From positions 32,887 through 96,886 of the IMG/VR virus record IMGVR_UViG_3300043399_000633: a DNA stretch of 64,000 nucleotides. One strand, 5' to 3'. Position numbers and translations under genes: made by a program. Of this stretch, positions 25,131 through 41,243 are shown one piece after another. The DNA comes from a virus. The notes under the pieces are model-generated. The model ran no database searches. It worked only from the letters and a program-made list of their open reading frames with translations, and was not told the DNA's origin. Every line of letters starts with the position of its first letter. Within the stretch, counting starts at the first letter, position 1.

Positions 25131-25207
25131 CTATTCTATAGTGTACTGAACGAACAATGCCCCATGCTTTTGGCGCATGGATCGGCCCTCAGTGTACTAT
25201 AGAATAG
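25131..25207 (+). repeat. Long-stem hairpin family member
   Basis: 19-bp stem with G.U pairs. Confidence 0.7.
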
Positions 25208-25214
25208 TGTATAT

Positions 25215-25289
25215 AGGGGGTTCGCCAAGTGGTAAGGCATCTGATTTTGATTCAGACATTCGGTGGTTCGATCCCATCACCCTCTGCCA
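25215..25289 (+). tRNA. tRNA-Gln(TTG)
   Basis: Cloverleaf, CCA. Confidence 0.9.
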
Positions 25290-25290
25290 A

Positions 25291-25430
25291 TCTAATATAT
25301 TCTAGCACTTAGAGAATGACTGCACGGGACTGTGGAGCAAAGCAGGAACCCGGCGGCAATAATTGGGTGGTAGCTTGAACCCTACTTCTTGATTCTCATT
25401 CTGGTTCACTGAGTGCTAGAATATATTAGA
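25291..25430 (+). repeat. Long-stem hairpin family member
   Basis: 21-bp stem enclosing about 98 nt. Confidence 0.7.
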
Positions 25431-25435
25431 TACAA

Positions 25436-25510
25436 GCCTGGTTAGCTCAGCGGTAGAGCAGCGTCTTGATAAGGCGTTGGTCGGTGGTTCGACCCCACCA
25501 CTAGGCACCA
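25436..25510 (+). tRNA. tRNA-Ile(GAT)
   Basis: Cloverleaf, CCA. Confidence 0.9.
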
Positions 25511-25518
25511 CAAATTAT

Positions 25519-25595
25519 GGGCCATTAGTTCAGTTGGTAGAACGCCTGCCTTGCAAGTAGGATGTCGTGGGTTCGATTCCCACATGTGTCCACCA
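25519..25595 (+). tRNA. tRNA-Ala(TGC), bulged acceptor
   Basis: Cloverleaf, G3.U70, CCA. Confidence 0.85.
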
Positions 25596-25604
25596 AAAAC
25601 AAAC

Positions 25605-25645
25605 TGGGATTATTGTCAGTCAGGTCAGACGGCTCAGTTCGAAGT
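25605..25645 (+). pseudogene. Truncated tRNA 5' half upstream of HNH gene
   Basis: D arm GTC-AGTCAGGTCA-GAC; no T arm or 3' acceptor strand. Confidence 0.5.
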
Positions 25646-25694
25646 AACCGTTCAACATTCTTCGTTTGTGATAAATACATCAAGGAGAATAAGT

Positions 25695-26159
25695 ATGTTA
25701 CTTCAATCATCTAAAATCAAGTGCAGGCACTGTGAGAAATTAATTTTTCCGCATAGTGTCACCAGGCACGATGCGGTGTGTCATCTTCACCCGGACAATA
25801 TAAGACTATGTAAGATATGTAACGAGCCAATTTTTAATTGGCGAGAATCAAAGGGAACATGTTCACATGCATGTGCTAATAAGCTGTTCAGAACAGGTGA
25901 AAATCATGGGAATTGGAAACCAGAACGGTATCAAACTACTTGTTTTGAACACCATGAAAGAAAATGTGTAGTATGTGGGGAAGATAAAGTAGTTGCGGTC
26001 CATCATCTAGACCATAGCAAGAAAAATAATCACCCTTCAAACCTGATTCCAATGTGCCCGACGCATCACCAATATTGGCATAGTAAGTATAGAACATTAA
26101 TTGAGGATAAGGTTCTATCTTACATAGAATCTTGGAAGAAAAAGAATAACTCTCTATAG
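25695..26159 (+). CDS. HNH endonuclease with zinc fingers
   Basis: CVVC...VHHLD...N...NLIPMCPTHH; AGGAG RBS; stop inside tRNA-Pro. Confidence 0.85.
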   Translation: MLLQSSKIKCRHCEKLIFPHSVTRHDAVCHLHPDNIRLCKICNEPIFNWRESKGTCSHACANKLFRTGENHGNWKPERYQTTCFEHHERKCVVCGEDKVVAVHHLDHSKKNNHPSNLIPMCPTHHQYWHSKYRTLIEDKVLSYIESWKKKNNSL

Positions 26160-26225
26160 CGTAACCAGGTAGCGTTCCTGATTTGGGGTCAGGAGGTCGG
26201 GGTTCGAATCCTCGTAGGGAGACCA
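26150..26225 (+). tRNA. tRNA-Pro(TGG)
   Basis: Cloverleaf, CCA. Confidence 0.9.
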
Positions 26226-26231
26226 AACATT

Positions 26232-26326
26232 GGAAAGTAATGCAGGCATATTGGTGTGCCGACTAGTTTCGAAAGCTAGGTTCCCATGTGACATGGGATG
26301 GGGTTCGATTCCTCTGCTTTCCGCCA
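26232..26326 (+). tRNA. tRNA-Ser(CGA), 8/4-type fold
   Basis: 8-bp acceptor, 4-bp T stem, 6-bp D stem, long variable arm, GCCA. Confidence 0.75.
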
Positions 26327-26330
26327 GTTT

Positions 26331-26392
26331 TAGGATGCTAACAGCAAATTTTAACATCAAACTGCTAATTTGAAACGTTAAAACGCATCCTG
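26331..26392 (+). ncRNA. ACAGCAA-stem (Y-RNA-like) RNA with anticodon-loop cargo (GCT)
   Basis: TAGGATGC/GCATCCTG stem, TAACAGCAA, TCAAA-CTGCTAA-TTTGA. Confidence 0.65.
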
Positions 26393-26404
26393 TGATATAT
26401 CTGT

Positions 26405-26481
26405 TGGGGTGACATACGACGGGAAGTATACTGGGCTTTGAACTCAGGTCTTAGTCGGTTCGAATCCGACCACCCTTGCCA
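26405..26481 (+). tRNA. tRNA-Gln(TTG), atypical D arm
   Basis: Cloverleaf, CCA. Confidence 0.8.
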
Positions 26482-26518
26482 AATTTTTTGTCAGCATAGT
26501 TTGTCACTAAATAGTGAT

Positions 26519-27343
26519 ATGAATATTTCCTATGCTGATAATGGATGGACTGTGTTCATCAACGATGATCTAACCACATTGTCTAACGACGAAATAAAGC
26601 AAGTTGCTAAATTCGTTGTTACAAATATGGTTGTTGTGTTCAAAAAACAAAACCTTACTCCAGAACAGGAATTAAAATTCTGTAGAGTGATAGGCAATCA
26701 CCAGTACTACCCTGCTTCGTATGAACGAGGAAAGCATATCAGATTGAATGACGGTATACTTAGGGTGACTGGTAAAAAAAATGAATATGGCGAACCTGGA
26801 CTTTTTGGCCATACTTCTGCACTTGATTGGCATGCCAATCAACCTAGTAACAAAGAACGTAAGCCATTGATTTGGTTGTACGGTGCAGAAGGGACTAAGG
26901 GTTCAAGAACAAGCTGGCTCAACAATATTGCTAGCTATCAGGATTTGCCCACTGATCTCAAAAATGAAATTGATAGTCTACAAGTTTTTTGTGGATACGC
27001 AAAAGGCAAGTATTCTAATAGTTCTTATTTTGTAGAACATGTCAATGAGTCTAATCCCATTGATCTTGTTCAAACAAACAAAGAAGGTAAGAAGGGATTG
27101 TTTTTTCCATTCTTACAAATATTCGGCTTTAAAGATAAAGACGAACAGTATTTCAACAAAATAATGCAACAATTGATCGATCATGTCGTTCAAGAAAAGT
27201 ACATGTATCATCATGATTGGGATGACGGAGATGTTGTCATTTCAGAACAAATATTAAGCATCCACAAACGTTGGGCTTTTGATGATATGGAAAATCGTGT
27301 GTTGCATAGAATTGCGTTTGACTATTCAAACGTATACAAATAA
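26519..27343 (+). CDS. TauD/TfdA-family dioxygenase
   Basis: VVVFK.Q.L, WHAN, W..GDVVI...HKR, R.L.R. Confidence 0.85.
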   Translation: MNISYADNGWTVFINDDLTTLSNDEIKQVAKFVVTNMVVVFKKQNLTPEQELKFCRVIGNHQYYPASYERGKHIRLNDGILRVTGKKNEYGEPGLFGHTSALDWHANQPSNKERKPLIWLYGAEGTKGSRTSWLNNIASYQDLPTDLKNEIDSLQVFCGYAKGKYSNSSYFVEHVNESNPIDLVQTNKEGKKGLFFPFLQIFGFKDKDEQYFNKIMQQLIDHVVQEKYMYHHDWDDGDVVISEQILSIHKRWAFDDMENRVLHRIAFDYSNVYK

Positions 27344-27348
27344 TCATT

Positions 27349-27423
27349 GCTCGGTTCGTCTATCGGTTAGGACGCTGGCCTTTCACGCCGGAAAGAGGGG
27401 TTCGACTCCCCTACCGAGTACCA
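27349..27423 (+). tRNA. tRNA-Glu(TTC)
   Basis: Cloverleaf, CCA. Confidence 0.9.
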
Positions 27424-27432
27424 AACAATTTT

Positions 27433-27508
27433 GCCGCTTTAGCTGATGTGGTCATAGCAACGGTTTGAAGCATCGTGGAACTAGGTTCGATCCCTAGAGG
27501 CGGCACCA
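27433..27508 (+). tRNA. tRNA-Phe(GAA)
   Basis: Cloverleaf, CCA. Confidence 0.85.
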
Positions 27509-27514
27509 AACATT

Positions 27515-27590
27515 GCCCGCGAAGTATTAGCTGGTGGTATGCCGCCTTCGTAACGCGGAGGATTCAGTTCGAGGCTGAACGCGGGCACCA
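27515..27590 (+). tRNA. tRNA-Thr(CGT)
   Basis: Cloverleaf with 31-39 mismatch, CCA. Confidence 0.75.
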
Positions 27591-27592
27591 AT

Positions 27593-27681
27593 AGTGAGAT
27601 GCCAGAGTTGGTCTATTGGCACTGATTGGAAATCAGTTGGTCGGAAACGGCACAAGGGTTCGAATCCCTTTCTCACTGCCA
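27593..27681 (+). tRNA. tRNA-Ser(GGA)
   Basis: Long variable arm, CCA. Confidence 0.9.
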
Positions 27682-27684
27682 AAT

Positions 27685-27752
27685 TTGACAACAAATGCAC
27701 TTGGTGATATACTATGTGCATACGCTGAGAAATCAGCGACGATCTTTAAAAA
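27685..27752 (+). promoter_or_regulatory. Promoter plus boxB/boxA-like antitermination leader
   Basis: TTGACA..TATACT, GCTGA-GAAA-TCAGC, GATCTTTAAAAA; similar at 28337, 31556, 36747, 40181. Confidence 0.6.
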
Positions 27753-27754
27753 GT

Positions 27755-27939
27755 TGTGTTCTTAAGGCTGATGACGGCAATCGTCAGAAGGCTTTAATCC
27801 AACCCCGAGCAGAGTAGCTTTGCCGAGCGAAGTGTTAGGGAGTCTCTATCATTTAGCGGATAGGATACCGGCTCATCGAGCGGGTCACGGTGGGTTCGAA
27901 TCCCCCTAGAGTTTATTGGACGTCAGCCTTAAGAACATA
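27755..27939 (+). ncRNA. Unknown structured RNA enclosed by 19-bp stem
   Basis: TGTGTTCTTAAGGCTGATG/CGTCAGCCTTAAGAACATA; internal GGTTCGAATCC T-loop. Confidence 0.55.
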
Positions 27940-27945
27940 TAGTAT

Positions 27946-28020
27946 ACACCGTGAGGCAGCTGGAGTGGCCGATAGTCCTTCAAACTATTGAGATGGGATC
28001 AAAACCCATACGGTGTACCA
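27946..28020 (+). tRNA. tRNA-Glu(TTC), atypical (C33, ATCAAAA T loop)
   Basis: All four stems pair, CCA. Confidence 0.7.
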
Positions 28021-28027
28021 ATCACAT

Positions 28028-28103
28028 GCCGTAGAGTCCACCTGGGGGTGATACTTCACTGTCTATGAAGCAGCGGCGGGTTCGATTCCCGTCTACGGCG
28101 CCA
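28028..28103 (+). tRNA. tRNA-Asp(GTC), atypical
   Basis: Cloverleaf, CCA. Confidence 0.8.
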
Positions 28104-28175
28104 AAATTGAGAACTTCAATGAACACGAGGAGTTTAATTCATGAAGCGTCCTTCATGGTCTCATTCAATTTCTAT

Positions 28176-28254
28176 TCCGCGGAATCCGAGCGTGGTGCAC
28201 GGACTTGACTGTTAATCAATGACTAGCTGGGATCGTCACCCAGACGCGGAGCCA
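28176..28254 (+). tRNA. tRNA-Asn(GTT), atypical
   Basis: CTGTTAA loop, ATCGTCA T loop, GCCA. Confidence 0.7.
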
Positions 28255-28433
28255 AACATTAAGACTTTAAATAATCATACTTAAAGTCTGACTAATGGTT
28301 GACAATAATTCGTGCAGGTGCTACAATACATGCATGAGTTGAGAAATCAACTAGTTCTTTATACAATTTAACGGTTTCAAGGTATTACGTTAAAGAGACA
28401 CTGGGTTTTCACTAGTGTTCGTTGACGTAACGT

Positions 28434-28538
28434 GATACCATATTTCAACGCATTAGTGGAGGTTTGCTCAGTAATAGCAACCTTTAAATGAGATGGCTCT
28501 GATCTTATCACGCCAATAGTGTGTTGAAATATGGTATC
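28434..28538 (+). repeat. Long-stem hairpin family member
   Basis: GATACCATATTTCAACGCATTA/TAGTGTGTTGAAATATGGTATC. Confidence 0.75.
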
Positions 28539-28539
28539 G

Positions 28540-28623
28540 GGAGGTTTGGCAGAGCGGTCGATTGCGCCTGACTGTAAATCAGGTCTTAACAGCACGGTGG
28601 TTCGAATCCATCAGCCTCCACCA
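28540..28623 (+). tRNA. tRNA-Tyr(GTA)
   Basis: Cloverleaf, CCA. Confidence 0.9.
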
Positions 28624-28629
28624 ATTATC

Positions 28630-28728
28630 GGGCACGTAAGCATCTAGCGGAAGATGCTACTCGCTGTGTTGCCATGAATACAGCAAATAAGGAGGAGAGT
28701 GCAGGTTCGAGTCCTGTCGTGTCCACCA
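28630..28728 (+). ncRNA. tRNA-like RNA with elongated anticodon arm
   Basis: Acceptor with G3.U70, D and T arms, ACCA; about 38-nt central arm. Confidence 0.65.
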
Positions 28729-28941
28729 AAACAATCCTTGAGTTTGACTGGTCTGCGCGCGGCTTGTTAATAGTTGGGAATGTCACTTTCGACAGTGACC
28801 TCAAGGGCCCCAAGTTATGGAGATAGAAACTGACAGATTGAATTAAGTCCTCGTGGAGGCGGATACTGGTTCAATGGTCAGCGGATAACGTGGACGGCGT
28901 ATGGGTCATGCCTATACGCAGGCGGTCTCCACCAAGATATA

Positions 28942-29010
28942 GGCTTTAGAGTGATTGGAAATCCTATCTCTTTCATGAGGAGATGTTGCGAGGTTTGAAT
29001 CCTCGATAGC
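28942..29010 (+). pseudogene. Degenerate tRNA(CAT)-like sequence
   Basis: ATCTCT-TTCATGA-GGAGAT arm, T arm; poor acceptor, no CCA. Confidence 0.4.
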
Positions 29011-29102
29011 CCACACAAGTATCCCACACACATCGAATGGTGCGGTAAGGAATCAAGAGATTCTGTCGTGGGAAGTCTAGCAAAAAGCCGTGACGGCTAG
29101 AC

Positions 29103-29179
29103 ACCATAGTTCAGCACATTTTGAAGAAACCCGAGGTCTTCTACGACGGGACGGGGCTCTTAGTGTGCTGAACTATGGT
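29103..29179 (+). repeat. Long-stem hairpin family member
   Basis: ACCATAGTTCAGCACATT/AGTGTGCTGAACTATGGT. Confidence 0.75.
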
Positions 29180-29226
29180 AAAGGAGTAATTAACCTCAAC
29201 CATACTCGGAAGTCATGACTCCGAGG

Positions 29227-29353
29227 ACCCGTGGTAGTTTAATGGCAAAATGAGAGAGATGATGGGTTCGTGACCCATCCGTCCTTAGTCGGGGCGTAGG
29301 TTAAGTGTAAACCGCAGACAGATGAGGGTTTCGAAACCCCTCCCACAATGGGT
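29227..29353 (+). ncRNA. Anticodon-less double tRNA-elbow RNA
   Basis: D arm, T arm, hairpin, D arm, T arm, closed by terminal stem. Confidence 0.55.
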
Positions 29354-29434
29354 TAATATTCAAATTGCTAAAGTAAAATGCTAAAAACCTCAAGTAAATG
29401 ATAAATAGTTACACAACTACTATAGCATTTTACT

Positions 29435-30139
29435 ATGAATTACAAGAACATTTACCATACTCTGATTACTAGAGGCAAAGAAAGAAAGATTGAATCTGAA
29501 TATAAGGAAATACACCATATTATTCCTCGTTGTTTGGGTGGATCAGATGAGATAGAGAATCTGGTCGAACTAACTCCAGAAGAACATTATGTTGCCCATC
29601 AACTCTTGATAAAAATCTATCCAGATAATCATTCTTTAATTTACGCAGCAAGGATGATGATTGTCAATCGTCCATCAAATAAATTGTATGGCTGGCTTAG
29701 AAGAAAATACGCCGAAGCGGTGTCAATAAATCAAACTGCCGAAGGGAATTCTCAACACGGAACTAAATGGATAACAAATTTACAGGGCGAACAAAAGAAA
29801 ATAGAAAAAAGTTTGGTAATTCCCGAAGGATGGGTTGCAGGTAGAAAAAAATTGAGCACTTGTAAATATTGTAACGCATCGTATCTAAAAATTACTAATA
29901 CAATATTTTGTTCAGTGATTTGTAAATCATCTTATACTCAGGAAATATTGAGTACTCGGATGAGTAGTAATAACCCAATGAAGGACCCATCTGTTGCTAA
30001 AAAGCAAGCAGATAAGGTAAGAGGTAAGAAAAAGAGCCCACACAAGAGAAAACGAACAGAGGATCACAATCAAAAATTATCGGTTGCGTCGAAGTTGGTC
30101 TGGGAAAAAAGAAAACAATCTAAAGTGGCGGTAGACTAA
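29435..30139 (+). CDS. HNH homing endonuclease
   Basis: EIHHIIPRCLGG.D...NLV.LT.EEHY.AH.LL; upstream 12-bp inverted repeat around ATAAATA. Confidence 0.9.
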   Translation: MNYKNIYHTLITRGKERKIESEYKEIHHIIPRCLGGSDEIENLVELTPEEHYVAHQLLIKIYPDNHSLIYAARMMIVNRPSNKLYGWLRRKYAEAVSINQTAEGNSQHGTKWITNLQGEQKKIEKSLVIPEGWVAGRKKLSTCKYCNASYLKITNTIFCSVICKSSYTQEILSTRMSSNNPMKDPSVAKKQADKVRGKKKSPHKRKRTEDHNQKLSVASKLVWEKRKQSKVAVD

Positions 30140-30191
30140 TTGGATAAGTCGCGGCGAAATGGTGGTTTCGAAGTCCACCCCACAATGGGTT

Positions 30192-31515
30192 ATTATATTT
30201 CAGCGCATTAGCACTGGCTGCTACCACAGTCAGACGTATTGGTAGATATGCTGGGCAACAACGCCGCCCGGGTAGTGTGCTGAAATATGGTAAGCCTTAA
30301 TCCAACTGAGGAACAAAAGATCGTCAGAGTCGCGTCTGGTAAAGATCAAGTAGTTCCAATTAGGTGACTCAAGGCTGGTTCCCGGCGGGGAGCCATATTG
30401 AAGCACATTTCTTGGCTAGTAGCGGAAAGAATACTTAATCGGGTCAACGAGCCTTTACTCCTCCCGAAGAACGGTATCGTAAAGATATAAGGACCGTCTA
30501 TGTATTGTGAAGTGTGTTTCAATATGGTATGAGAGCCTCTTCAACGACCAGAGTGTCTATTATTGTTGTGGAGATAAAATAGTAGACCGATCTAGATTGG
30601 GCAGTGTCCACTACTCATAATTTGCTCATACCATTTACCATATTAAAACACATTAGCCTACCTCCACCGAGAGGTAGTTAAAGATAATGACAAGCAACAG
30701 CCAGTGTGTTTCATCGAGACATGGTCTTACTCAAGGATCGCGGTGTTGGGAAGAACGGGAATACATAACCGTCTGTAAGCAATCCTGCACATTGAGAGGG
30801 GGTGGAATTCCCCCACCATATTAAAACACATTAGCCTACCCAAGGGCTTGTAGACAGTGGTTGGAAGGATCTACACAAGTGCTATCGCAAGAGGCAGGAA
30901 CCATCCAGGTGGTGCTGGACCCTGCGGGGGCTTCGAAATCCTCAGATAAGCCGTAGTGTGTTTTAATATGATAAGGATACATATGTTGTATGATATTTGA
31001 TGGAACACCATGCTTTCTCATGTCATATAGCAAAAGTGGCAGGTTTGTAGCGTACCTGTTGTATAAAAACGCTATGATCATATTGAAACACATTGATCCT
31101 AACGATTGTTTAGGAAGACTGGCGATTGTTCAGCAGTGTGTTTCAATATGGTAAATGCGTAGGCTGATACGCAACTTTGAGTTCGGTGCGGCAAGCCACA
31201 CAGGTAAAGCTGGTGGCATGGCTCTTCAAAAATCCAGCATGCGGGAGATCAGCACCCGCTACCATAGTTCAACACATTTCTAATGTACAAACAACTACCC
31301 GGGTTAAGTTGGGAAGTGTGTTGAACTATGGTGAATAGGGCCTCGCTCACTAAGGTCCGTTAAGAGCGAGCAATGCCAGCAGGACGGATCTGAGATAGCG
31401 AAGGAAAGTGGGCAGAGGCTGGCTTCCATAGTTCAACACATTCTACCCTACCTCGGCTGGAACGGCTGTGCGAGGATAGGCGAACAGACCCGTTTGAGTG
31501 TGTTGAACTATGGAA
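30192..31515 (+). repeat. Array of 7 long-stem hairpins alternating with 89-108 nt structured spacers
   Basis: Starts at 30192, 30393, 30637, 30815, 31077, 31261, 31424; arms ACCATA(T/G)T.AA.CACATT and AGTGTG.TT.AA(T/C)ATGGT. Confidence 0.8.
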
Positions 31516-31601
31516 CTTGACACAAATTAGTAAGAGTGCTATACTGTGTATCTGTTGTTGAGTGATCAGCACAAATTCTTTAAAAACTTAATTACAATAC
31601 T

Positions 31602-31715
31602 TCTTAGTATTGTTGAGCATACTAGGCTATATCGGTATACTTAATTGGAACCGTACTCCTATGTTAGCATGACGGCTAGGCATCATGTGCTATAGTGTGT
31701 TCAACAATGTTAAGA
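31602..31715 (+). repeat. Long-stem hairpin family member
   Basis: About 23-bp stem; right arm nearly identical to that at 40285. Confidence 0.7.
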
Positions 31716-34690: not shown

Positions 34691-34698
34691 TTTTACAT

Positions 34699-34773
34699 AT
34701 CTCTGTAGTTCAATGGACAGAATGATTCTCTCCTAAAGAATAGATATCGGTTCGATTCCGGTCAGAGGTACCA
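34699..34773 (+). tRNA. tRNA-Arg(CCT)
   Basis: Cloverleaf, CCA. Confidence 0.9.
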
Positions 34774-35019
34774 AAAATCAACATCCGACCTAACGCAGGC
34801 AACTGAGGAAGTTCGGGACTTGTGGCAAGTGCGTGTGGGAGGGATGTTCATAGCATGCCGTTAATACCACCGTGATATAACAAGCAACACAAACAGAACT
34901 AGGTAACACTTGCACTATTAGTTCGGGTTGTGGCGAAGATGAATGTTAGGATAAAACAGAATCCCGGCTATGGGATGTTGATTTGACAGAAAAGAATAAA
35001 TGATTTATAATAAGAATAT

Positions 35020-35094
35020 GGGACATTAACTCAGCGGAAGAGTCTTGGTCTTCGAAACCAATGGTCGGGGGTTCGAATCCTCTATGTCCCTCCA
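35020..35094 (+). tRNA. tRNA-Arg(TCG)
   Basis: Cloverleaf, CCA. Confidence 0.85.
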
Positions 35095-35146
35095 ATGATA
35101 CATTAAATAATGTAACAGGCATTTAGCACAAGGAAAGGAGTTAAAA

Positions 35147-35707
35147 ATGGCTGTTCTAGCACTAGATATTTCAGGCACTCCGCGGCAATGGATTTCGTAT
35201 GATGACGCAATTTCATACCATGCTACAAAGAGTGTAGCGTGGAGCATGGGTGATATTGTTGCAAAATACCGCGGCGGTATCCAAAATGACGGTACAGAAA
35301 GCTATATCGAAACTCCAAGTATTATTGCAATTAAGGGACATGGGTTCAATCCTCACAAGCATTCGAGGGTTGCTCTAAGTAACCGTACACTGTTCGGTCG
35401 TGACCGATATGTGTGTGCGTACTGCGGTGGACATTTCCCGAACTTCAATAATCTTAGTCGTGATCACATTGTTCCTAAGTTTCATGGCGGAGAAAACACG
35501 TGGATGAACGTAGTTACCGCTTGCAAGGAATGTAATAGCAAGAAGGGTCACAAGACATTGAAGGAAGCTCGTATGGAATTGTTGTACGTGCCGTACGAAC
35601 CCAATCACTATGAAAACATGATTCTGCAAAATCGCACGATCCTTGCAGATCAAATGGAATACTTGCTTGCAGGTGTTCCAAAACATAGTAGGATCCTATT
35701 GTCATAG
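35147..35707 (+). CDS. HNH endonuclease (McrA-like)
   Basis: RD...CAYCG...DHIVP...GG...W.N.VTAC..CN..K; AAGGAG RBS. Confidence 0.9.
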   Translation: MAVLALDISGTPRQWISYDDAISYHATKSVAWSMGDIVAKYRGGIQNDGTESYIETPSIIAIKGHGFNPHKHSRVALSNRTLFGRDRYVCAYCGGHFPNFNNLSRDHIVPKFHGGENTWMNVVTACKECNSKKGHKTLKEARMELLYVPYEPNHYENMILQNRTILADQMEYLLAGVPKHSRILLS

Positions 35708-35773
35708 GAAGAGGTCATGCAAGGTGTTGACAAAATATCTTGCATGACTTACAATGAGTAAATATTGAATAAC

Positions 35774-35848
35774 GCCGAATTAGCACAGGGGTAGTGCAAT
35801 CGCCTTGTAAGCGATAGGTCGTCTGTTCGAATCAGACATTCGGCACCA
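35774..35848 (+). tRNA. tRNA-Thr(TGT)
   Basis: Cloverleaf, CCA. Confidence 0.9.
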
Positions 35849-35854
35849 AATTTT

Positions 35855-35931
35855 CGGAGTATAGCGCAGTCTGGTAGCGCAACTGCTTTGGGAGCAGTGG
35901 GTCGGGAGTTCGAATCTCTCTACTCCGACCA
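35855..35931 (+). tRNA. tRNA-Pro(TGG)
   Basis: Cloverleaf, CCA. Confidence 0.9.
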
Positions 35932-35940
35932 AGTTTTTAT

Positions 35941-36015
35941 TCCGGTGTAGCACAGCGGTAGTGCAGTTGACTGTTAATCAATTGGTCGTTGGTTCGAACC
36001 CAGCCACCGGAGCCA
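35941..36015 (+). tRNA. tRNA-Asn(GTT)
   Basis: Cloverleaf, CCA. Confidence 0.9.
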
Positions 36016-36023
36016 AGTTTTAT

Positions 36024-36100
36024 ACGGCTGTAGTTCAGTGGACCAGAACAATTGCCTTCTAAGCAATGGGTCGCAGGTTCGAATCCTGCCAGCCGTGCCA
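36024..36100 (+). tRNA. tRNA-Arg(TCT)
   Basis: Cloverleaf, CCA. Confidence 0.9.
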
Positions 36101-36117
36101 ATAATAAAAGAGTCTTT

Positions 36118-36483
36118 ATGAAAGAGTTTACGATACCCGAAGAGTATATAACTGAAGTTGTTGTTAGGACTGAACATGATTTCATAAAGGATCGAAAAAA
36201 TCCTACTTACGAAGACCTAATAAAAATCCTTAGAGGATATGATATAGGTGTTAGCATAAGTAATGAAGATCACGATGAATTTGCAAAATTGCGTGACCAA
36301 CTTGAAAGTGAAGGTTACATAGAATGTCAGCGTGGTTGGTGGAATGGTGATCGTGTATTAAAGCCATTTAAATTGAATGAGTGGAAGTTTAAAAAGAATC
36401 ATAAATTTCCTTGCGCCGCAGCTATGAAAGCTAGTATAGAGTGTGCTAGGAAATATGGTTGGAAAAGTATTTCGCATCTTTGA
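36118..36483 (+). CDS. Hypothetical phage protein
   Basis: ORF between tRNAs; start moved downstream of tRNA-Arg. Confidence 0.7.
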   Translation: MKEFTIPEEYITEVVVRTEHDFIKDRKNPTYEDLIKILRGYDIGVSISNEDHDEFAKLRDQLESEGYIECQRGWWNGDRVLKPFKLNEWKFKKNHKFPCAAAMKASIECARKYGWKSISHL

Positions 36484-36484
36484 T

Positions 36485-36559
36485 ATCTCCCTGGTGTCAA
36501 CGGCAGCATGACGGTCTCCAAAACCGTGGGTGGGGGTTCGAATCCCTCGGGGGATGCCA
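36485..36559 (+). tRNA. tRNA-Trp(CCA)
   Basis: Cloverleaf, CCA. Confidence 0.9.
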
Positions 36560-36773
36560 AAAAAATATTGACAAATAATCGTAGGTGTTATATACTGTGT
36601 ATCTTGATTGAGAAGTTGATGCAAGTAAGCCCTAAGCGAAAGCAGGCATTGAATAAAGTTCTTGACAAGAAATAGCAGGTGTTGTATACTTGCACAGTAG
36701 CCTGAGAACTTACAGGCACAACGTTTCCCGATAACGTAAATCGGAAGCTCTTTAAAAATCATAAAAGCATTTT

Positions 36774-36863
36774 GCCCGGGTGGTGAAATTGGTAGACACA
36801 AGGGACTTAAAATCCCTCGCTTCCGAAAGGGGCGTGCCGGTTCGATTCCGGCTCCGGGCACCA
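36774..36863 (+). tRNA. tRNA-Leu(TAA)
   Basis: Long variable arm, CCA. Confidence 0.9.
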
Positions 36864-37067
36864 TACTATAATGCATCTTTGTCTATATTTTATATATTGA
36901 GGGGACATAGCCTGCCCTAGCGAAGCTAAAGAACCCGAGGATACACATCATATCGTATTAGAAAATTAGACATTCTAATACATTATTTAATATTGATGAT
37001 TGTAACTTTGACTCGGCAACACGGTACATCGAACTAGACACTCGGTGGAGGTGCATTATAGTATGGT
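36860..37067 (+). repeat. Long-stem hairpin family member
   Basis: 20-bp stem starting in tRNA-Leu ACCA; about 168-nt interior. Confidence 0.7.
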
Positions 37068-37076
37068 GAATTAAAT

Positions 37077-37153
37077 GCCTCTGTAGCTCAATTGGTCAGA
37101 GCAGTGGACTCATAATCCATTGGTTACAGGTTCGAGTCCTGTCGGAGGCACCA
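37077..37153 (+). tRNA. tRNA-Met/Ile2(CAT)
   Basis: Cloverleaf, CCA. Confidence 0.9.
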
Positions 37154-37250
37154 AACATAGAAGGGGAGAGTGAGCGGAAACGGCAAGTCTACGACCGCCT
37201 ACTCTTAAACGACAGAACAGGACCGCGTCCCGTAGATTTTAGATATTAAT

Positions 37251-37342
37251 GGAAGGTTGCCCGAGAGGCCTAAGGGAGCGGTTTGCTAAACCGTCGATTC
37301 ACGAAAGTGGGTCCGTGGGTTCGAATCCCACACCTTCCACCA
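37251..37342 (+). tRNA. tRNA-Ser(GCT)
   Basis: Long variable arm, CCA. Confidence 0.9.
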
Positions 37343-37352
37343 AGCATACTAT

Positions 37353-37430
37353 GCACCGGTACCAGAGAGGCTTAATGGCTCGGATTGCAAACCCGTTGAT
37401 TCGTAGGTTCAAATCCTACCCGGTGCTCCA
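37353..37430 (+). tRNA. tRNA-Cys(GCA)
   Basis: U73, CCA. Confidence 0.85.
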
Positions 37431-37435
37431 GATAA

Positions 37436-37527
37436 GGTGAGTTGGCAGAGTTGGTTTATTGCAACAGTCTTGAAAACTGTCGATTCTGAATAAGGGTCCG
37501 TGAGTTCGAATCTCACACTCACCACCA
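37436..37527 (+). tRNA. tRNA-Ser(TGA)
   Basis: Long variable arm, CCA. Confidence 0.9.
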
Positions 37528-37534
37528 ATTAATT

Positions 37535-37624
37535 GGGGGTTGTTCTCTACGGCGGACTGTAAATCCGTTGCCTTGAATATGTAGAGTGGTTGGCGATTAG
37601 GTTCGATTCCTTCAGCCCCCACCA
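37535..37624 (+). tRNA. tRNA-Tyr(GTA)-like, rewired/pseudoknotted D domain
   Basis: Same topology as 31721 with covarying helices. Confidence 0.65.
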
Positions 37625-37630
37625 ATTTAT

Positions 37631-37707
37631 GGTGCGTTAGTTCAGTTGGTTAGAATACCGCCCTGTCACGGCGGTGGTCACCGGTTCGAGCCCGGTACGC
37701 ATCGCCA
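37631..37707 (+). tRNA. tRNA-Asp(GTC)
   Basis: Cloverleaf, CCA. Confidence 0.9.
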
Positions 37708-37969
37708 AGTTTTGTTAAGTGTGTCTCTAATAGAAAGCACTATGTCTAAGCTGGCCAGCAGAAGCATAGTAAAAGGTGACGGTTCGAGGACGCATCATGG
37801 TACCCTCCCGCTGACTATTATTGTGACGTACCCTAGGAGAAGAAATTCTCATAACCGCAGGGCCCATAATTTGCGGATAATGCTGTCTATGTATGTGGTG
37901 ACAGATACTTAACAAATTCAATATCGCCTTTACTGACGGCGTACAATGTGATAAATTGTCAGTACACTT

Positions 37970-38046
37970 GCCCCGATGACGGAATCGGTATACGTGTTGG
38001 ATTCAAAATCCAAATTTTGAGGGTTCGAATCCCTCTTGGGGCACCA
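37970..38046 (+). tRNA. tRNA-Leu(CAA), short variable loop
   Basis: Cloverleaf, CCA. Confidence 0.85.
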
Positions 38047-38133
38047 TATTATAGTACATACTGTTTCGCTGGTGGATACCCAGAGATAGTCAGATCCAGA
38101 CTGAAGAACGGTTTAAGTGTACTATAATATGGT
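38043..38133 (+). repeat. Long-stem hairpin family member
   Basis: ACCATATTATAGTACAT/GTGTACTATAATATGGT. Confidence 0.7.
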
Positions 38134-38149
38134 TAAAGATAAATAACTG

Positions 38150-38776
38150 ATGCGCTATAAAGAATTTTTAATTGAAAGAGTACTGAATCTTCATACACCT
38201 GAAGAAAAGATGCCATACGCAGAAATTGTATGGGATATGCTTCAGCGTAGTTATAAAAAGATAGGTGGCTTCAAAAGTGTTGCTAACATGGAAGAGTTGG
38301 TCAATGAGCCAGGTTATTGGAAGTTGGTCAAACGTGATGGAAAAATTACATCCGTTAACATCTATAAAAAATCACCGAAAACTAAAAATTTCAAAGTTAT
38401 TGCTAGTGCAACAGAAACCGACTACGATCCGGAAAAAGACAAGTATAAAGCAACACCTAAAGGTCTTAGTGACTACGAGATGATTAAAAAAAGTGATATT
38501 AAAATGAAGCGTAGTTGGGCAGAGGTAAGTGGTCCCGCAGAAATCTTGATGAAAAGAAGCGGTGCAACTCCTATACCAAACGAGTATGCAGAGTTATTGA
38601 CTGGTAAAAATATACTAGATTTCAATGATGATGGATATCATTACACTAGGTTAATTCACGGCGAACCTCATGAAAAAGTAATATATGGCTTTGTCAAATT
38701 AAGTGACGAAGGACGAGAAGAATTAGAATCTAGGGGTATCAATATCAAAAAACTTCCTAAAAACATAGAAATTTGA
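38150..38776 (+). CDS. Hypothetical phage protein
   Basis: 208-aa ORF after ATAAATA. Confidence 0.75.
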   Translation: MRYKEFLIERVLNLHTPEEKMPYAEIVWDMLQRSYKKIGGFKSVANMEELVNEPGYWKLVKRDGKITSVNIYKKSPKTKNFKVIASATETDYDPEKDKYKATPKGLSDYEMIKKSDIKMKRSWAEVSGPAEILMKRSGATPIPNEYAELLTGKNILDFNDDGYHYTRLIHGEPHEKVIYGFVKLSDEGREELESRGINIKKLPKNIEI

Positions 38777-38832
38777 CGATAAATCCAAACTGTGATATAG
38801 TGTCATTAAGTTATGAAAAGATTGGGGGTTTT

Positions 38833-39414
38833 ATGATTGTTTATCTACATGGATTTGCAAGTTCAGGTTCTAGTCCAAAGGTCGGTGCATTGCGCGCCCG
38901 GTTTGGTACTGACTCTGTAGTAGCGCCTGATCTACCCTTTGATCCAGCATTAGTTAGGCAATTAGGTTTTGATTTGGTCAACCGGTATGTTAAAACACGA
39001 GCAGCAAATGAAAAATTAATCTTCGTTGGAACTAGTCTAGGTGCATTCTATGCAAGTTATTTTGGTCACGTATATGACTGTCCAATTGTTATTGTAAATC
39101 CTAGTGGTAAGCCTAGCGAAACATTAAAGGCAAAACTAGGCACTAATGTAAATTACGTGACTGGTGATGAGTTTATGGTTTCTTTAGCGCACTTGGATGA
39201 GTTGGCAAATATGCGTAAGTATGTTGCTGAGAATTATTCAGGTTCGTTGGTAAGTTTGTTTGTAGCACGTGATGACGAGGTTATCCCCTTCGAATCTATG
39301 ATCGAAAGTTTTCCGTATACCAGCAAGATGGTTATAATGGATGACGGTGGTCACCGATTCACAAAACACTGGGATCTAGTTGTTGATCGTGTGGCAGAAA
39401 TAATGAACTATTGA
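38833..39414 (+). CDS. YqiA/UPF0227-like alpha/beta esterase
   Basis: YLHGFASS, GTSLG, DEVI, GGH.F. Confidence 0.85.
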   Translation: MIVYLHGFASSGSSPKVGALRARFGTDSVVAPDLPFDPALVRQLGFDLVNRYVKTRAANEKLIFVGTSLGAFYASYFGHVYDCPIVIVNPSGKPSETLKAKLGTNVNYVTGDEFMVSLAHLDELANMRKYVAENYSGSLVSLFVARDDEVIPFESMIESFPYTSKMVIMDDGGHRFTKHWDLVVDRVAEIMNY

Positions 39415-39419
39415 TAGGC

Positions 39420-40007
39420 ATGGATCAGTCTGCAAGAATAAAAAAATATTTATCACAAATACCCAAAAATTTAAATTGGGTAGATGTAGCTTGCGGAAAT
39501 GGGTGCCTATCAAAAATTTTAGTAGATCACGCTGATGCAAATGTTTTGGCTATCGACGCCAGAGATTATTTTCAGTTTAAAACTTATGCTAGGATAAACT
39601 TCATAACAAAAAATATAGAAGATGCCGATTTCTTCGACATAATTAAAACATACGATGCTATTCTATATTTAGGGCATTTTTATCATACTATCAAAAATGA
39701 AGAAATCGTAAAAATCTTTAGCGAGTCAACAGCAAAATATCTATTATTAGAAAGTAAGGTGCATAATTTTAACTCTGCTACCTCCAAAAAAGAAACTGTA
39801 AATTTTTACGTAGAGTCAACCTCTAACAACTATCAGCCTTACTCTGACTCTAATAAAGAGTTATCTATATGTCAACCCAATTTACCATGGACTTTATCTA
39901 TATTAAATAAATATGGTTGGACTATAAATGATTATGATTGTGTAATAGCAAAGTCATCTATAGATGGAAAAATTTTCCAAAGTTACTTGATATTTGCTCA
40001 AAGATGA
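39420..40007 (+). CDS. Class I SAM-dependent methyltransferase
   Basis: DVACGNG, AIDAR, LGHFYH. Confidence 0.75.
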   Translation: MDQSARIKKYLSQIPKNLNWVDVACGNGCLSKILVDHADANVLAIDARDYFQFKTYARINFITKNIEDADFFDIIKTYDAILYLGHFYHTIKNEEIVKIFSESTAKYLLLESKVHNFNSATSKKETVNFYVESTSNNYQPYSDSNKELSICQPNLPWTLSILNKYGWTINDYDCVIAKSSIDGKIFQSYLIFAQR

Positions 40008-40030
40008 TGTATAATGAAACAAATTTGAAT

Positions 40031-40108
40031 GCGGGTATAGTGTTTAACGGCTAGCACGTAAGTCTTCCAAACTTGAAGTGAGGAGTTCGAATCTCCCTAC
40101 CCGCTCCA
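40031..40108 (+). tRNA. tRNA-Gly(TCC)
   Basis: Cloverleaf, U73, CCA. Confidence 0.85.
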
Positions 40109-40222
40109 ATAAGAAAATGGTCAACAATTCTAAAAAAGTTGTTGACAAATAAATCGAAAGCATGTAGAATGCTTGCATACGCTGAGAAATCAGCAACGTT
40201 CTTTAAAAAGTAAATGCAATGT

Positions 40223-40308
40223 TTCTTAACATTGTTGAATACATTGCTCACGGTGCGTACAACGGGCTACGGGTGAGGTAACAACAGTGTGTTCAACAAT
40301 GTTAAGAA
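40223..40308 (+). repeat. Long-stem hairpin family member (5' flank of giant ncRNA)
   Basis: 24-bp stem. Confidence 0.75.
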
Positions 40309-40310
40309 TT

Positions 40311-41201
40311 CAAGGGCAGCTTAATGTCCTACACGGTATGGTTCGCCCAGCTGTGTGAAGAATAAGTCAGGTGACTGACCCAAAGGAGGTAAGCCTACAT
40401 AACTCCGCTAGTAATAGTTCATTTAAGCAAGCCTGCTCACACCCGCGAGGGTGCGTTCACTGAGAAGACCGGTGGATGTAACAATGAAGCAAGTGTGTTG
40501 GAAAGAATGTCTGTTTAAGTCCCCGCAAGGGTAAGACAGGCAGACAGAGAGTAACAGGTGGTGCTGACCTCAACACAAAACCAACTTGCGAATTGGTATG
40601 AGAAAGGGTAGTATTATGATCCGAAGGGTCGCACCTAAGGGTTGTAGTGCAGTATGAGTGGTTAGTGGGCATGTAGTAATACATGTACACCGATCGCAAA
40701 ATACGACTGAGTAGTCCGCGAGACAAAAGGTACGTGGTGTGTTGTATTGAGTAGAGCAAAACTTTATTCAGCAACTGAGGCAGCACATCATAGTAGGTCA
40801 AATGTAGATCAATGGTAGATCGTCTGTATGATGAACAGAATGCTGTCGGTTCAAGTCCGATCATTTTAACAAAAACGCAAAGACTGCCTCGGTTGTATGT
40901 GAAAAACATCTAATACTTGACTCTTCGGAGAATCAAGTCTGACGTAACTCGCAAGGTGAAATCAGTTTATGCAGGATATTTCGTAGCCCGCAAGGCTTAA
41001 TGGACCGCAAGTTCAACGGAATGGAAAGCGTAGAATAGCATACAATGTCAAGTCTACTGCCTGACTCTAAACGGCGATGTTGGTAACAGACTAGGTTACT
41101 GTGTAATAACAGGGCTTAGTGGATATCTAGAGAAGGTTGGCTCGCAAGGCTAACTATAATGCTAGAGGTGTTACTCGGTAAGGATGTAATCTCAGTCCTC
41201 C
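40311..41201 (+). ncRNA. GOLLD-like giant ncRNA with embedded tRNA-like domain (40797..40870)
   Basis: About 890 nt without a plus-strand ORF, many GNRA hairpins (CGCAAG/CGCGAG), embedded cloverleaf, phage tRNA-cluster context; recognised by eye. Confidence 0.7.
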
Positions 41202-41243
41202 ACTATTCTAAAGCGCATTAATATTAGTGTGTTTCAGAATAGT
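41202..41243 (+). repeat. Empty long-stem hairpin family member (3' flank of giant ncRNA)
   Basis: ACTATTCTAAAGCGCATTA/TAGTGTGTTTCAGAATAGT, 4-nt loop. Confidence 0.7.

What the first reader, a model, noticed from the sequence alone, without database searches (positions are those of the whole stretch)
25131..41243. The same hairpin family punctuates the whole RNA island and pairs with tRNA CCA ends
Seen: further copies at 25131, 25291, 28434, 29103, 31602, 34049, 36860, 38043, 40223, 41202 (27755 has the same architecture), all in one orientation and none noticed outside the island. At 34049, 36860 and 38043 the stem's ACCA is the 3' end of the upstream tRNA; at 34152 its GGT is the start of the next tRNA. 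The giant ncRNA is bracketed by two copies, one with an empty loop. Inference: the stem is a processing signal, and it may gate tRNA 3' maturation.
Basis: partly seen in the sequence, partly recalled or inferred. Interest (0 to 1): 0.7.

Follow-up and report, generated by a model that had tools for sequence, protein, structure and literature searches.

The report
Constant-stem hairpins locking phage tRNA ends
A large uncultured freshwater phage scatters through its tRNA gene island 17 copies of an RNA hairpin with a nearly constant 18-base-pair stem and unrelated interiors. The stem often starts exactly on the CCA tail of the tRNA before it. The same apparently undescribed hairpin occurs in the tRNA islands of at least 100 other phage contigs and one cultured phage, and its function is still unproven.

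Summary
A covariance model built from 14 copies finds 17 copies on the + strand between 25127 and 41246. It finds none elsewhere on the 96.9-kb contig. The stem covaries (98% paired, 12 of 18 pairs with double changes). G.U pairs outnumber A.C mismatches 388 to 69 on the tRNA-sense strand, so it acts as RNA. The CCA overlaps at 34049, 36860 and 38043 and the GGT overlap at 34152 are exact.

The family is not private to this phage and does not depend on GOLLD. One capped scan gave 100 viral contigs with 233 distinct copies, 98 of them in tRNA arrays. In 91 copies stem position 1 is the tRNA discriminator base. Preferred tRNAs are Lys(UUU), Glu(UUC) and Gln(UUG). Interiors are swapped like cassettes between identical arms.

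Rfam and the literature searched have nothing like it. A cultured carrier exists: Synechococcus phage BUCT-ZZ01.

Best reading (about 0.4): a double-strand processing stem cut by a host RNase III-type enzyme, which frees the tRNA end and a small RNA. A protein-binding handle is the main rival. Earlier reports of this scan describe the same family on other genomes.

The parts
25124..25214 (+). Divergent copy. The stem ends 1 nt before tRNA-Gln (25215).
   Evidence: R1 29.8 bits, E 1.8e-4; 25/26 pairs
25290..25431 (+). Divergent copy. It starts on the base after the CCA of tRNA-Gln (25289) and ends 4 nt before tRNA-Ile (25436).
   Evidence: R1 29.6 bits; 28/30 pairs; tRNAs
27755..27939 (+). Long closing stem of the same architecture but a different sequence, around a 139-149 nt interior that contains a T-arm-like hairpin. 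It sits 3 nt after a boxA-like leader.
   Evidence: 21/23 pairs; not matched by R1; leader
28431..28541 (+). Family copy whose extended stem abuts tRNA-Tyr (28540).
   Evidence: R1 67.8 bits
29103..29179 (+). Family copy with 18/18 pairs. It is preceded by a small helix followed by ACCA.
   Evidence: R1 63.3 bits; sequence
30185..30298 (+). Family copy, first of the tRNA-free array.
   Evidence: R1 54.4 bits
30390..30530 (+). Family copy.
   Evidence: R1 56.0 bits
30634..30728 (+). Copy with an intact 5' arm and a degenerate 3' arm.
   Evidence: R1 23.0 bits, E 0.0075; orphan 5' arm scoring 26.1
30815..30972 (+). Family copy, preceded by a T-arm-like hairpin followed by ACCA.
   Evidence: R1 57.6 bits; sequence
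31075..31154 (+). Family copy.
   Evidence: R1 58.6 bits
31260..31333 (+). Family copy and the best-scoring one. It is preceded by a 5-bp helix, a T, then ACCA.
   Evidence: R1 70.9 bits
31418..31521 (+). Family copy, last of the array.
   Evidence: R1 66.9 bits
31602..31715 (+). Promoter-proximal variant whose base reads UCUUAGUAUUG instead of ACCAUA. It lies 16 nt after a boxA-like leader.
   Evidence: R1 58.4 bits
34048..34155 (+). Copy docked on both sides. Its ACCA (34049-34052) is the 3' end of tRNA-Lys(UUU). Its GGT (34152-34154) is the start of tRNA-Met. It has an A.C mismatch at stem position 9.
   Evidence: R1 63.3 bits; tRNAs; fold
36859..37068 (+). Copy whose ACCA (36860-36863) is the 3' end of tRNA-Leu(UAA). 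Its interior is 156-172 nt and A/T-rich. tRNA-Met follows 9 nt later.
   Evidence: R1 53.6 bits
38043..38133 (+). Copy whose ACCA (38043-38046) is the 3' end of tRNA-Leu(CAA).
   Evidence: R1 61.3 bits
40221..40310 (+). Promoter-proximal variant, 12 nt after a boxA-like leader and upstream of the GOLLD 5' half.
   Evidence: R1 51.5 bits
41200..41245 (+). Minimal copy with a 4-6 nt loop. It starts 2 nt after the Rfam end of GOLLD (41198), and tRNA-Leu follows at 41263.
   Evidence: R1 42.3 bits
40734..41198 (+). Conserved 3' half of GOLLD RNA, enclosing tRNA-Ile (40798-40870). It is a neighbour of the family, not a member.
   Evidence: Rfam RF02032, 226.4 bits
27687..27752 (+). One of five promoter-plus-leader units: TTGACA...TATACT, a small hairpin GCTGAGAAATCAGC, then TCTTTAAAAA. 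The others end at 28365, 31586, 36758 and 40209. They start the transcripts that carry the hairpins.
   Evidence: Pattern TCTTTAWAMA: 9 matches against 1.9 expected, 5 of them on the + strand in the island; sequences. Reading it as an rrn-type boxB/boxA rests on my own knowledge of the E. coli boxA sequence.

Best explanation
The hairpins are RNA elements carried on long precursor transcripts of the tRNA island. These transcripts start at sigma-70-like promoters followed by a small hairpin and a boxA-like leader. Each element is an A/U-rich stem of 18 to about 25 bp. Two nearly constant 6-bp boxes (ACCAUA/UAUGGU at the base, CACAUU/AGUGUG at the top) flank a freely covarying middle, and the stem closes an interior of 4 to 190 nt.

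The 5' strand begins on the discriminator-CCA of the RNA upstream, which is a tRNA or a tRNA-like helix. That 3' end is therefore held in a duplex.

Most likely working (inferred, not shown): the stem is cut by a double-strand-specific host endonuclease of the RNase III family. The cut does three things at once. It frees the upstream tRNA, whose end is then finished by exonucleases or CCA repair. It leaves a short leader on the downstream RNA for RNase P. It releases the interior, on a shortened stem, as a small RNA.

Shown here: RNA-level pairing, confinement to tRNA islands, the exact CCA register, and spread across many phages. Inferred: which enzyme cuts, where it cuts, and whether the released small RNAs do anything.
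For: The structure is under selection as RNA on the tRNA strand. In the window 98.4% of cells are paired, 12 of 18 pairs covary, and 0 of 500 shuffles reach the observed values. Across the family there are 388 G.U pairs against 69 A.C mismatches in 4194 cells.

The copies share orientation with tRNAs in 223 of 242 cases. In five fuller genomes (four at least 94% complete, one 80%) all hits lie within one stretch of 10 kb or less.

The register is exact: offset -4 in 91 copies and no more than 2 at any other nearby offset. Copies without a called tRNA are preceded by a helix of 6 bp or more ending right before position 1 in 49% of cases, against 21% in controls.

A perfect 18-bp stem directly after the CCA blocks single-strand nucleases, so a double-strand cut is the simplest way to a chargeable tRNA (inference).

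The base ACCA/UGGU is a WSSW core, with A-U at the fourth pair. Altuvia et al. 2018 (PMC6212723) report this preference for the two pairs between E. coli RNase III cuts and for their position D. They also note the ACC^U site of Mini-III.

The transcripts begin with leaders like those of rRNA operons, where RNase III stems follow the leader (my own knowledge).

No phage-encoded RNase III, CCA-adding enzyme or other universal neighbour was found, so a host enzyme is the candidate.
Against: No RNA ends have been mapped.

Twelve of 18 stem positions are held at 82-100% identity across phages whose neighbouring proteins are only 42-66% identical. That is more than RNase III specificity requires.

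Eighteen copies overlap the next tRNA by 3 nt. A cut at UGG^U would fall inside that tRNA.

Eighteen bp is at the short end for RNase III substrates.

Only about 7% of tRNAs carry the hairpin.

Conserved interiors and cassette swaps suggest that the whole hairpin, not its fragments, may be the product.

Hosts are unknown except for one isolate.
Confidence: 0.4

Rival explanations
1. The constant stem is a handle for a sequence-specific RNA-binding protein or RNP, as the Ro60-binding stem is for Y RNAs. The hairpins would be stable small RNAs that present different interiors on a common adapter. Docking on tRNA ends would only serve to get precise ends from the tRNA-processing enzymes.
For: Two constant boxes lie about one helical turn apart, separated by a freely covarying hexamer with 65 different middle pairs. 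A U.G wobble is kept at position 17 in 76-82% of copies. The stem is more conserved than neighbouring proteins. Interiors are exchanged between identical arms. Some interiors are conserved structured RNAs with a T-arm. T-loop motifs occur in 26 of 233 interiors against about 4 expected. A second stem-plus-cargo family and a Ro60-like protein (DUF2828/DUF7788, 43273-44688) lie in the same island.
Against: No candidate binder travels with the family. DUF2828 is in 2 of 11 records and DUF458 in 2 of 11. The commonest neighbour is present in only 30 of 100 loci. Rfam YrlA does not match any copy. Most interiors fold no better than shuffled sequence, with z from -1.75 to +0.5.
Confidence: 0.25
2. 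The stem is a passive clamp. It would be a stable duplex that stops exonucleases, shields the CCA end of the upstream RNA, and keeps neighbouring RNAs from misfolding. It would not be cut itself.
For: Both ends of the interior and the upstream CCA are buried in a duplex of -18 to -70 kcal/mol. RNase P at the downstream tRNA would define the 3' side (39 copies lie 0-10 nt before a tRNA). The hairpins fill the long gaps of the arrays: 36 of 104 gaps of 81-130 nt hold one, and none of 571 gaps under 41 nt does.
Against: A clamp needs pairing, not a constant sequence. An uncut clamp would leave the tRNA permanently extended and unchargeable. Five hundred and seventeen tRNA junctions do without one.
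Confidence: 0.15
3. The inverted arms act on DNA as recombination sites, comparable to integron attC sites. They would move or swap cassettes within phage tRNA islands, and the RNA hairpin would be a by-product.
For: The interior is replaced between arms and flanks that are 85-100% identical (L110:200 against L121:1794; L012:9190 against L051:993). The layout matches attC in outline: conserved inverted ends, a variable centre of variable length, all copies in one orientation. HNH endonuclease genes lie in the island.
Against: Wobble pairs favour the transcribed strand 388 to 69. The register with the tRNA CCA is exact to the nucleotide. The conserved boxes do not carry the attC core sequence. 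No recombinase is among the common neighbours. Swaps are equally explained by ordinary homologous recombination between constant arms.
Confidence: 0.07

Closest known systems
RNase III processing stems: the stems flanking 16S and 23S rRNA in rRNA operons, and the inter-gene hairpins of phage T7 early and late transcripts (R1.1 and sister sites)
   Same: They are long perfect or near-perfect duplexes placed between mature RNAs on a polycistronic precursor. All copies lie in one orientation. Like the rRNA stems, they enclose a cargo. The precursor starts with a boxA-like leader, as in rRNA operons. The base ACCA/UGGU fits the WSSW preference reported for E. coli RNase III (PMC6212723).
   Different: Cleavage is untested. 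The stem sequence is far more constant than in known RNase III sites. The interiors are small, unrelated and swappable. The 5' strand starts exactly on a tRNA CCA end, which has no counterpart in those systems.
Small stable RNAs of phage T4's tRNA cluster (rnaC and rnaD, species 1 and 2)
   Same: They are non-tRNA RNAs of unknown function embedded in a phage tRNA cluster, abutting tRNAs, and one has a T-arm.
   Different: They are not members: the best R1 match in the T4 tRNA region has E = 0.12 and lies elsewhere. They have no constant closing stem and do not pair with a CCA.
Y RNAs and bacterial YrlA, with Ro60 (Rsr)
   Same: A stem formed by the two ends carries a constant protein-binding sequence and a variable module that is sometimes tRNA-like. 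A Ro60-like gene lies next to the island.
   Different: Rfam YrlA matches none of the copies. The stem has no conserved bulge. The Ro60-like gene is absent from 9 of 11 carrier records.
T-box riboswitch discriminator (UGGN pairing with the tRNA NCCA end)
   Same: The same four-base pairing occurs, UGGU with ACCA, stacked on a helix.
   Different: Here the pairing is in cis with the precursor's own trailer. There is no specifier loop, terminator or downstream gene.
Integron attC sites
   Same: Both have conserved inverted ends, a variable centre, one orientation, and evidence of cassette exchange.
   Different: This family shows an RNA-strand wobble bias. It has no attC core sequence, no integrase nearby, and no ORF cassettes.

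Membership tests
RNase III processing stem | Continuous duplex of about two helical turns placed between mature RNAs | tested here: met
   18 bp constant, extended to 21-31 bp in several copies. The copies are flanked by tRNAs or other RNAs.
RNase III processing stem | Staggered double cut leaving 2-nt 3' overhangs and dependent on RNase III | not testable with these tools
   No RNA run was listed for this sequence.
RNase III processing stem | Base-pair preferences near the cut (WSSW between the cuts, A-U at position D) | tested here: inconclusive
   ACCA/UGGU and A-U at stem position 6 fit the rule quoted from PMC6212723. However, ACCA is there anyway as the tRNA end, and promoter-proximal copies lack it.
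Y RNA / YrlA | Match to the Rfam model RF02553 | tested here: not met
   No hairpin is matched at E up to 1. The only YrlA-like hit, at 33268-33324, is a different element.
Y RNA / YrlA | Co-occurrence with a Ro60 (TROVE-like) protein | tested here: not met
   DUF2828 is in 2 of 11 carrier records and 1 of 4 near-complete ones.
Integron attC | Core sites RYYYAAC / GTTRRRY at the ends, and an integrase | tested here: not met
   The constant boxes are ACCATA/TATGGT and CACATT/AGTGTG. No recombinase is among the common neighbours. The wobble bias points to RNA.
Intrinsic terminator | G+C-rich stem followed by a run of U | tested here: not met
   The stem is A/U-rich. The positions after the 3' arm are A-rich (57% and 48% A).
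Miniature inverted-repeat transposable element | Copies share their interior and show target-site duplications | tested here: not met
   231 interiors fall into 164 clusters, 124 of them singletons.
T4 rnaC/rnaD | Sequence or structure likeness to the T4 RNAs | tested here: not met
   R1 finds nothing at rnaC or rnaD. Their folds lack the closing stem.
Any Rfam 15 family | Covariance-model match at the hairpin positions | tested here: not met
   Gathering and E<=1 scans of 24500-43500 give only tRNA, GOLLD and weak tRNA-like hits. Thirteen related loci give only tRNAs and group I introns among the 150 highest-scoring of 191 matches.

The most novel reading that the evidence does not exclude
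The constant stem is a phage-specific 'CCA lock'. It would be a checkpoint that keeps selected tRNAs unchargeable until a dedicated factor opens or cuts it. The tRNAs concerned are above all Lys(UUU), Glu(UUC) and Gln(UUG), which in E. coli need thiolated U34. The freed hairpin would keep a 3' UGGU tail and could re-bind the CCA ends of uncharged tRNAs in trans, as a T-box does, with its interior as an effector.
Probability: 0.1. Interest if true: 0.9.

Novelty: new variant of a known kind. Interest (0 to 1): 0.75.

Why it matters
Phage tRNA islands are usually read as lists of tRNA genes. This family shows that they also hold a widespread, strongly conserved RNA element that no database or paper searched describes. 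It is physically coupled to the CCA end, the one part of a tRNA that must be free for charging.

If the stem is a processing site, it is a new rule for how phages mature tRNAs and release dozens of small RNAs from one transcript. If it is a protein handle, it is a natural plug-in scaffold for small RNAs.

The bias towards tRNA-Lys(UUU), Glu(UUC) and Gln(UUG) links it to current work on phage tRNAs as counter-defence. My own knowledge is that tRNA-Lys(UUU) in particular is a target of bacterial anticodon nucleases.

A cultured carrier with a tractable host (BUCT-ZZ01 on Synechococcus elongatus PCC 7942) makes these questions directly testable.

Tried and rejected
- Sequencing runs: no RNA holder was listed for window 28401-38400. 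Only freshwater and lake DNA runs kept as contigs were found, so no ends could be mapped and read laying was not used.
- blastn against the 50,697 isolate phage records: the GOLLD region gave no match. One hairpin gave only three weak partial hits.
- Rfam: nothing at the hairpins.
- Literature: five topical full-text searches found no description of the family. A sixth search, for BUCT-ZZ01 by name, found one review, which I did not read.
- Phage-encoded partner: RNase III PF00636 in 0 of 11 records. CCA-adding enzyme PF01743 in 0 of 12. Ro60-like DUF2828 in 2 of 11. DUF458 in 2 of 11. PHROGs on the common small neighbours gave nothing informative.
- Host clue: psbA in 0 of 12 records, so the carriers cannot be called cyanophages from this marker.
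- Eleven isolates with tRNA arrays, plus the tRNA region of T4, do not carry the family. The eleven are CcrPW, Bambus, vB_EliS-L02, Cr30, DLP6, X1, RHph_I1_18, DSS3P8, VH1_2019, Va1 and Astolliot.
- Prokaryote genomes: only 3 of 119 pattern hits are real hairpins. Two of these lie on short tRNA-rich contigs that look like mis-binned phage DNA.
- Rejected readings: terminator, MITE, attC and self-cleaving ribozyme. The last is rejected because no constant core exists beyond the stem. The orphan arm at 21841 is a chance match.
- The MFE fold of tRNA-Lys + hairpin + tRNA-Met keeps the hairpin but mispredicts the tRNAs, so it says nothing about the competition at the base.

Full report
WHAT IS IN THE WINDOW

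The window is part of a 96,886-bp virus record that CheckV rates 27% complete, so the phage is probably very large. It comes from a freshwater metagenome. Between 25215 and 42482 lie 41 tRNA genes, all on the + strand. A GOLLD RNA lies at 40734-41198.

Their stems read roughly ACCATA-N6-CACATT ... AGTGTG-N6'-TATGGT.

IS IT MORE THAN CHANCE?

I aligned 14 copies (A1) and counted pairs for an 18-bp stem.
- 98.4% of cells are paired, against 82.7% in shuffles.
- 12 of 18 pairs change on both sides.
- None of 500 shuffles reaches any measure.
- Sliding the partner strand by 1-3 columns drops pairing to 28-49%.

A covariance model (R1) was run with filters off over the whole contig.
- It recovers the 14 training copies and three more: 25127-25211, 25291-25430 and 30634-30728.
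- All are on the + strand, and each scores higher there than on the - strand.
- Outside 25127-41246 the best match has E = 1.7.
- The element at 27755-27939 has a comparable closing stem but a different sequence and is not matched.

The three CCA overlaps (34049, 36860, 38043) and the GGT overlap at 34152 agree to the base with ARAGORN.

THE FAMILY IS WIDESPREAD AND PHAGE-SPECIFIC

- R1 finds full hairpins in nearly all of the 80 loci searched.
- My own arm-matrix-plus-pairing scan finds 244 hairpins (233 distinct) in 100 of the 120 loci.
- Ninety-eight of those 100 loci hold tRNA arrays, with up to 33 tRNAs in 14 kb.
- Eighteen of the 20 loci without a hairpin hold no tRNA at all, so most look like chance matches of the pattern.

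The same pattern in 596 Gb of prokaryote genomes gave 119 stretches. Only 3 are real hairpins, and two of those sit on short tRNA-rich contigs.

In five fuller carrier genomes (four at least 94% complete, one 80%), all hits fall within one stretch of 10 kb or less.

Neighbouring proteins of different loci are only 42-66% identical at the median. Even so, 12 of the 18 stem positions are 82-100% constant.

Rfam 15 has no match. Five topical full-text searches found no description. A sixth, for BUCT-ZZ01 by name, found one review that I did not read.

Earlier reports of this scan describe what is clearly the same family on other genomes. I reached the points above from my own calls.

IT ACTS AS RNA

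Over 4194 stem cells there are 3683 Watson-Crick pairs, 388 G.U pairs and 69 A.C mismatches on the tRNA-sense strand. On the opposite strand these last two numbers would swap.
- Position 17 is U.G in 178 of 233 copies.
- Position 9 is an A.C mismatch in 37 of 233 copies.
- Hairpins share the orientation of the tRNAs in 223 of 242 cases. Most of the rest are nearly perfect palindromes that dock correctly when read on the tRNA strand.

THE LINK TO tRNA ENDS IS GENERAL AND EXACT

In the related loci, stem position 1 is the discriminator base of an upstream tRNA in 91 copies. No other offset within 20 nt has more than 2.

Among the 138 copies without a called tRNA, 91 still begin with NCCA. A helix of 6 bp or more ends exactly before position 1 in 49% of them, against 21-22% in shuffled and offset controls. 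Many therefore follow tRNA-like RNAs that ARAGORN does not call.

The downstream side is looser. Eighteen copies overlap the next tRNA by 3 nt, as at 34152. A broad group lies 2-12 nt before it.

The hairpins occupy the long gaps of the arrays.
- None of 571 gaps under 41 nt holds one.
- 36 of 104 gaps of 81-130 nt hold one, and 32 of those start on the CCA.
- Some further gaps hold long stems of other sequence that also start at ACCA.

A new point is a strong preference for certain tRNAs.
- Lys(UUU): 20 of 46 carry the hairpin, with 19 different interiors.
- Glu(UUC): 23 of 65, with 18 different interiors.
- Gln(UUG): 7 of 45.
- Leu(UAG), Leu(UAA), Thr(UGU) and Ile(GAU): 6-7 of about 46 each.
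- Met: 2 of 113.
- Arg, Asp, Cys, Ala, Trp and His: none.

The window fits this pattern: Lys(UUU) at 34049, Leu at 36860 and 38043, and Gln flanked by the two divergent copies. Shared descent has not been corrected for.

THE INTERIORS

Interiors are 6-193 nt long, with a median of 56. The 231 interiors of at least 25 nt fall into 164 similarity clusters, 124 of them singletons. In the window they fold little better than shuffled sequence.

They are not junk throughout.
- One class is conserved in six loci. It has covarying hairpins and a T-arm, and the family stem is continued by about seven more pairs.
- A second class is conserved in five loci.
- T-loop motifs occur in 26 of 233 interiors against about 4 expected.

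Between loci whose flanks and arms are 85-100% identical, the interior can be replaced outright. Examples are 45 against 100 nt in L110 and L121, and 48 against 92 nt in L012 and L051. The arms thus behave as constant adapters and the interiors as exchangeable cassettes.

CONTEXT IN THE WINDOW

Five units lie on the + strand of the island. Each consists of a TTGACA-type promoter, a small hairpin and TCTTTA(A/T)A(A/C)A. Four of them are followed within 3-75 nt by a long hairpin, at 27755, 28431, 31602 and 40221. Those at 31602 and 40221 have a different base sequence, as expected where no CCA-ended RNA lies upstream. From my own knowledge, the leader resembles the boxB-boxA leader of rRNA operons, which precedes the RNase III stem of 16S rRNA.

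GOLLD is flanked by two copies here. However, 13 hairpin-rich loci elsewhere hold no GOLLD, so the family is tied to tRNA arrays and not to GOLLD.

MECHANISM

A perfect duplex starting on the CCA makes the tRNA unchargeable. It also shields the junction from single-strand nucleases, so something must cut or open it.

The simplest candidate is a host enzyme of the RNase III family.
- The stem has the required form.
- It sits where rRNA-operon and T7 processing stems sit.
- Its base, ACCA/UGGU followed by A-U, fits the in vivo preference reported for E. coli RNase III and the ACC^U site of Mini-III (PMC6212723).

No carrier record encodes its own RNase III or CCA-adding enzyme. No neighbour gene is universal.

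Several facts count against this reading.
- The constant boxes exceed what RNase III needs.
- A cut at UGG^U would damage the 18 downstream tRNAs that overlap the arm.
- Only about 7% of tRNAs have the element.
- Conserved and swapped interiors point to the hairpin itself as a product.

I therefore give the RNase III reading about 0.4. A sequence-specific protein handle gets 0.25, a passive clamp 0.15 and a DNA-level recombination site 0.07.

WHERE IT CAN BE TESTED

Of the twelve whole isolate genomes searched with R1, only Synechococcus phage BUCT-ZZ01 (Kyanoviridae) carries the family. Its host, as written in the record, is S. elongatus PCC 7942. It has four copies in a 25-tRNA island, and one starts on the CCA of tRNA-Lys(UUU). 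Eleven other isolates with tRNA arrays, and the tRNA region of T4, do not carry it. T4 rnaC and rnaD are positional analogues, not members.

VERDICT

The thing is a real, widespread and apparently undescribed phage RNA element coupled to tRNA CCA ends. Its enzyme or partner, and the use of its interiors, remain open.

Noticed in passing
window 27687-27752, 28300-28365, 31518-31586, 36663-36758, 40146-40209: Five promoter-like sites are each followed by a small hairpin (e.g. GCTGAGAAATCAGC) and by TCTTTA(A/T)A(A/C)A. The arrangement resembles the boxB-boxA antitermination leader of rRNA operons. The pattern is enriched: 9 matches against 1.9 expected.
   Followed up: partly
related loci, e.g. 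L015:2973-3629 (-): A DUF458 / RNase H-like protein (PF04308, phrog_11311) is the commonest neighbour of hairpin-bearing tRNA arrays (30 of 100 loci). It also lies beside tRNA genes in isolates such as Stenotrophomonas phage DLP6 and Xanthomonas phage X1. It may be a tRNA-island nuclease of unknown role.
   Followed up: partly
related loci; window 34049, 25290: The hairpin docks preferentially on tRNA-Lys(UUU), Glu(UUC) and Gln(UUG), the three tRNAs that carry thiolated U34 in E. coli. It almost never docks on Met, Arg, Asp, Cys, Ala, Trp or His.
   Followed up: partly
It co-occurs with the hairpin family in some phages.
   Followed up: partly
window 43273-44688 (+): An ORF with DUF2828 and DUF7788 domains lies directly after the tRNA island. 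The family is present in only 2 of 11 carrier records.
   Followed up: partly
window 42506-42721 (+): A 71-aa ORF matches the RNA polymerase omega / Rpb6 family (PF01192, E 1.4e-11). It is conserved next to tRNA islands in 12 loci.
   Followed up: no
window 40798-40870 inside 40734-41198: A tRNA-Ile(GAU) gene sits inside the GOLLD RNA. Papers on GOLLD have noted such cases.
   Followed up: no
window 26232-26322, 28625-28730, 27944-28023, 31720-31806, 37534-37621: Several CCA-ended tRNA-like RNAs are missed or only weakly scored by tRNA finders, with sub-threshold tRNA-Sec-like Rfam hits. Similar helix-plus-NCCA RNAs precede many hairpins in other phages.
   Followed up: partly
L091:4552-4748, L091:5921-6130, L037:13185-13378: Group I introns lie inside the tRNA arrays of related phages.
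   Followed up: no
L251:2862-3280 (-) in phage BUCT-ZZ01: ARAGORN calls a permuted tmRNA that overlaps a hairpin copy (3244-3374). It may be a false call or a real phage tmRNA.
   Followed up: no
window 25696-26150, 29435-30139, 32238-32966, 35147-35707: ORFs are interspersed among the tRNAs. The ORF at 35147-35707 matches HNH endonuclease families (PF14279 and PF01844). I read the other three as HNH-like only from their translations and did not scan them. T4's segB likewise lies in its tRNA cluster.
   Followed up: no
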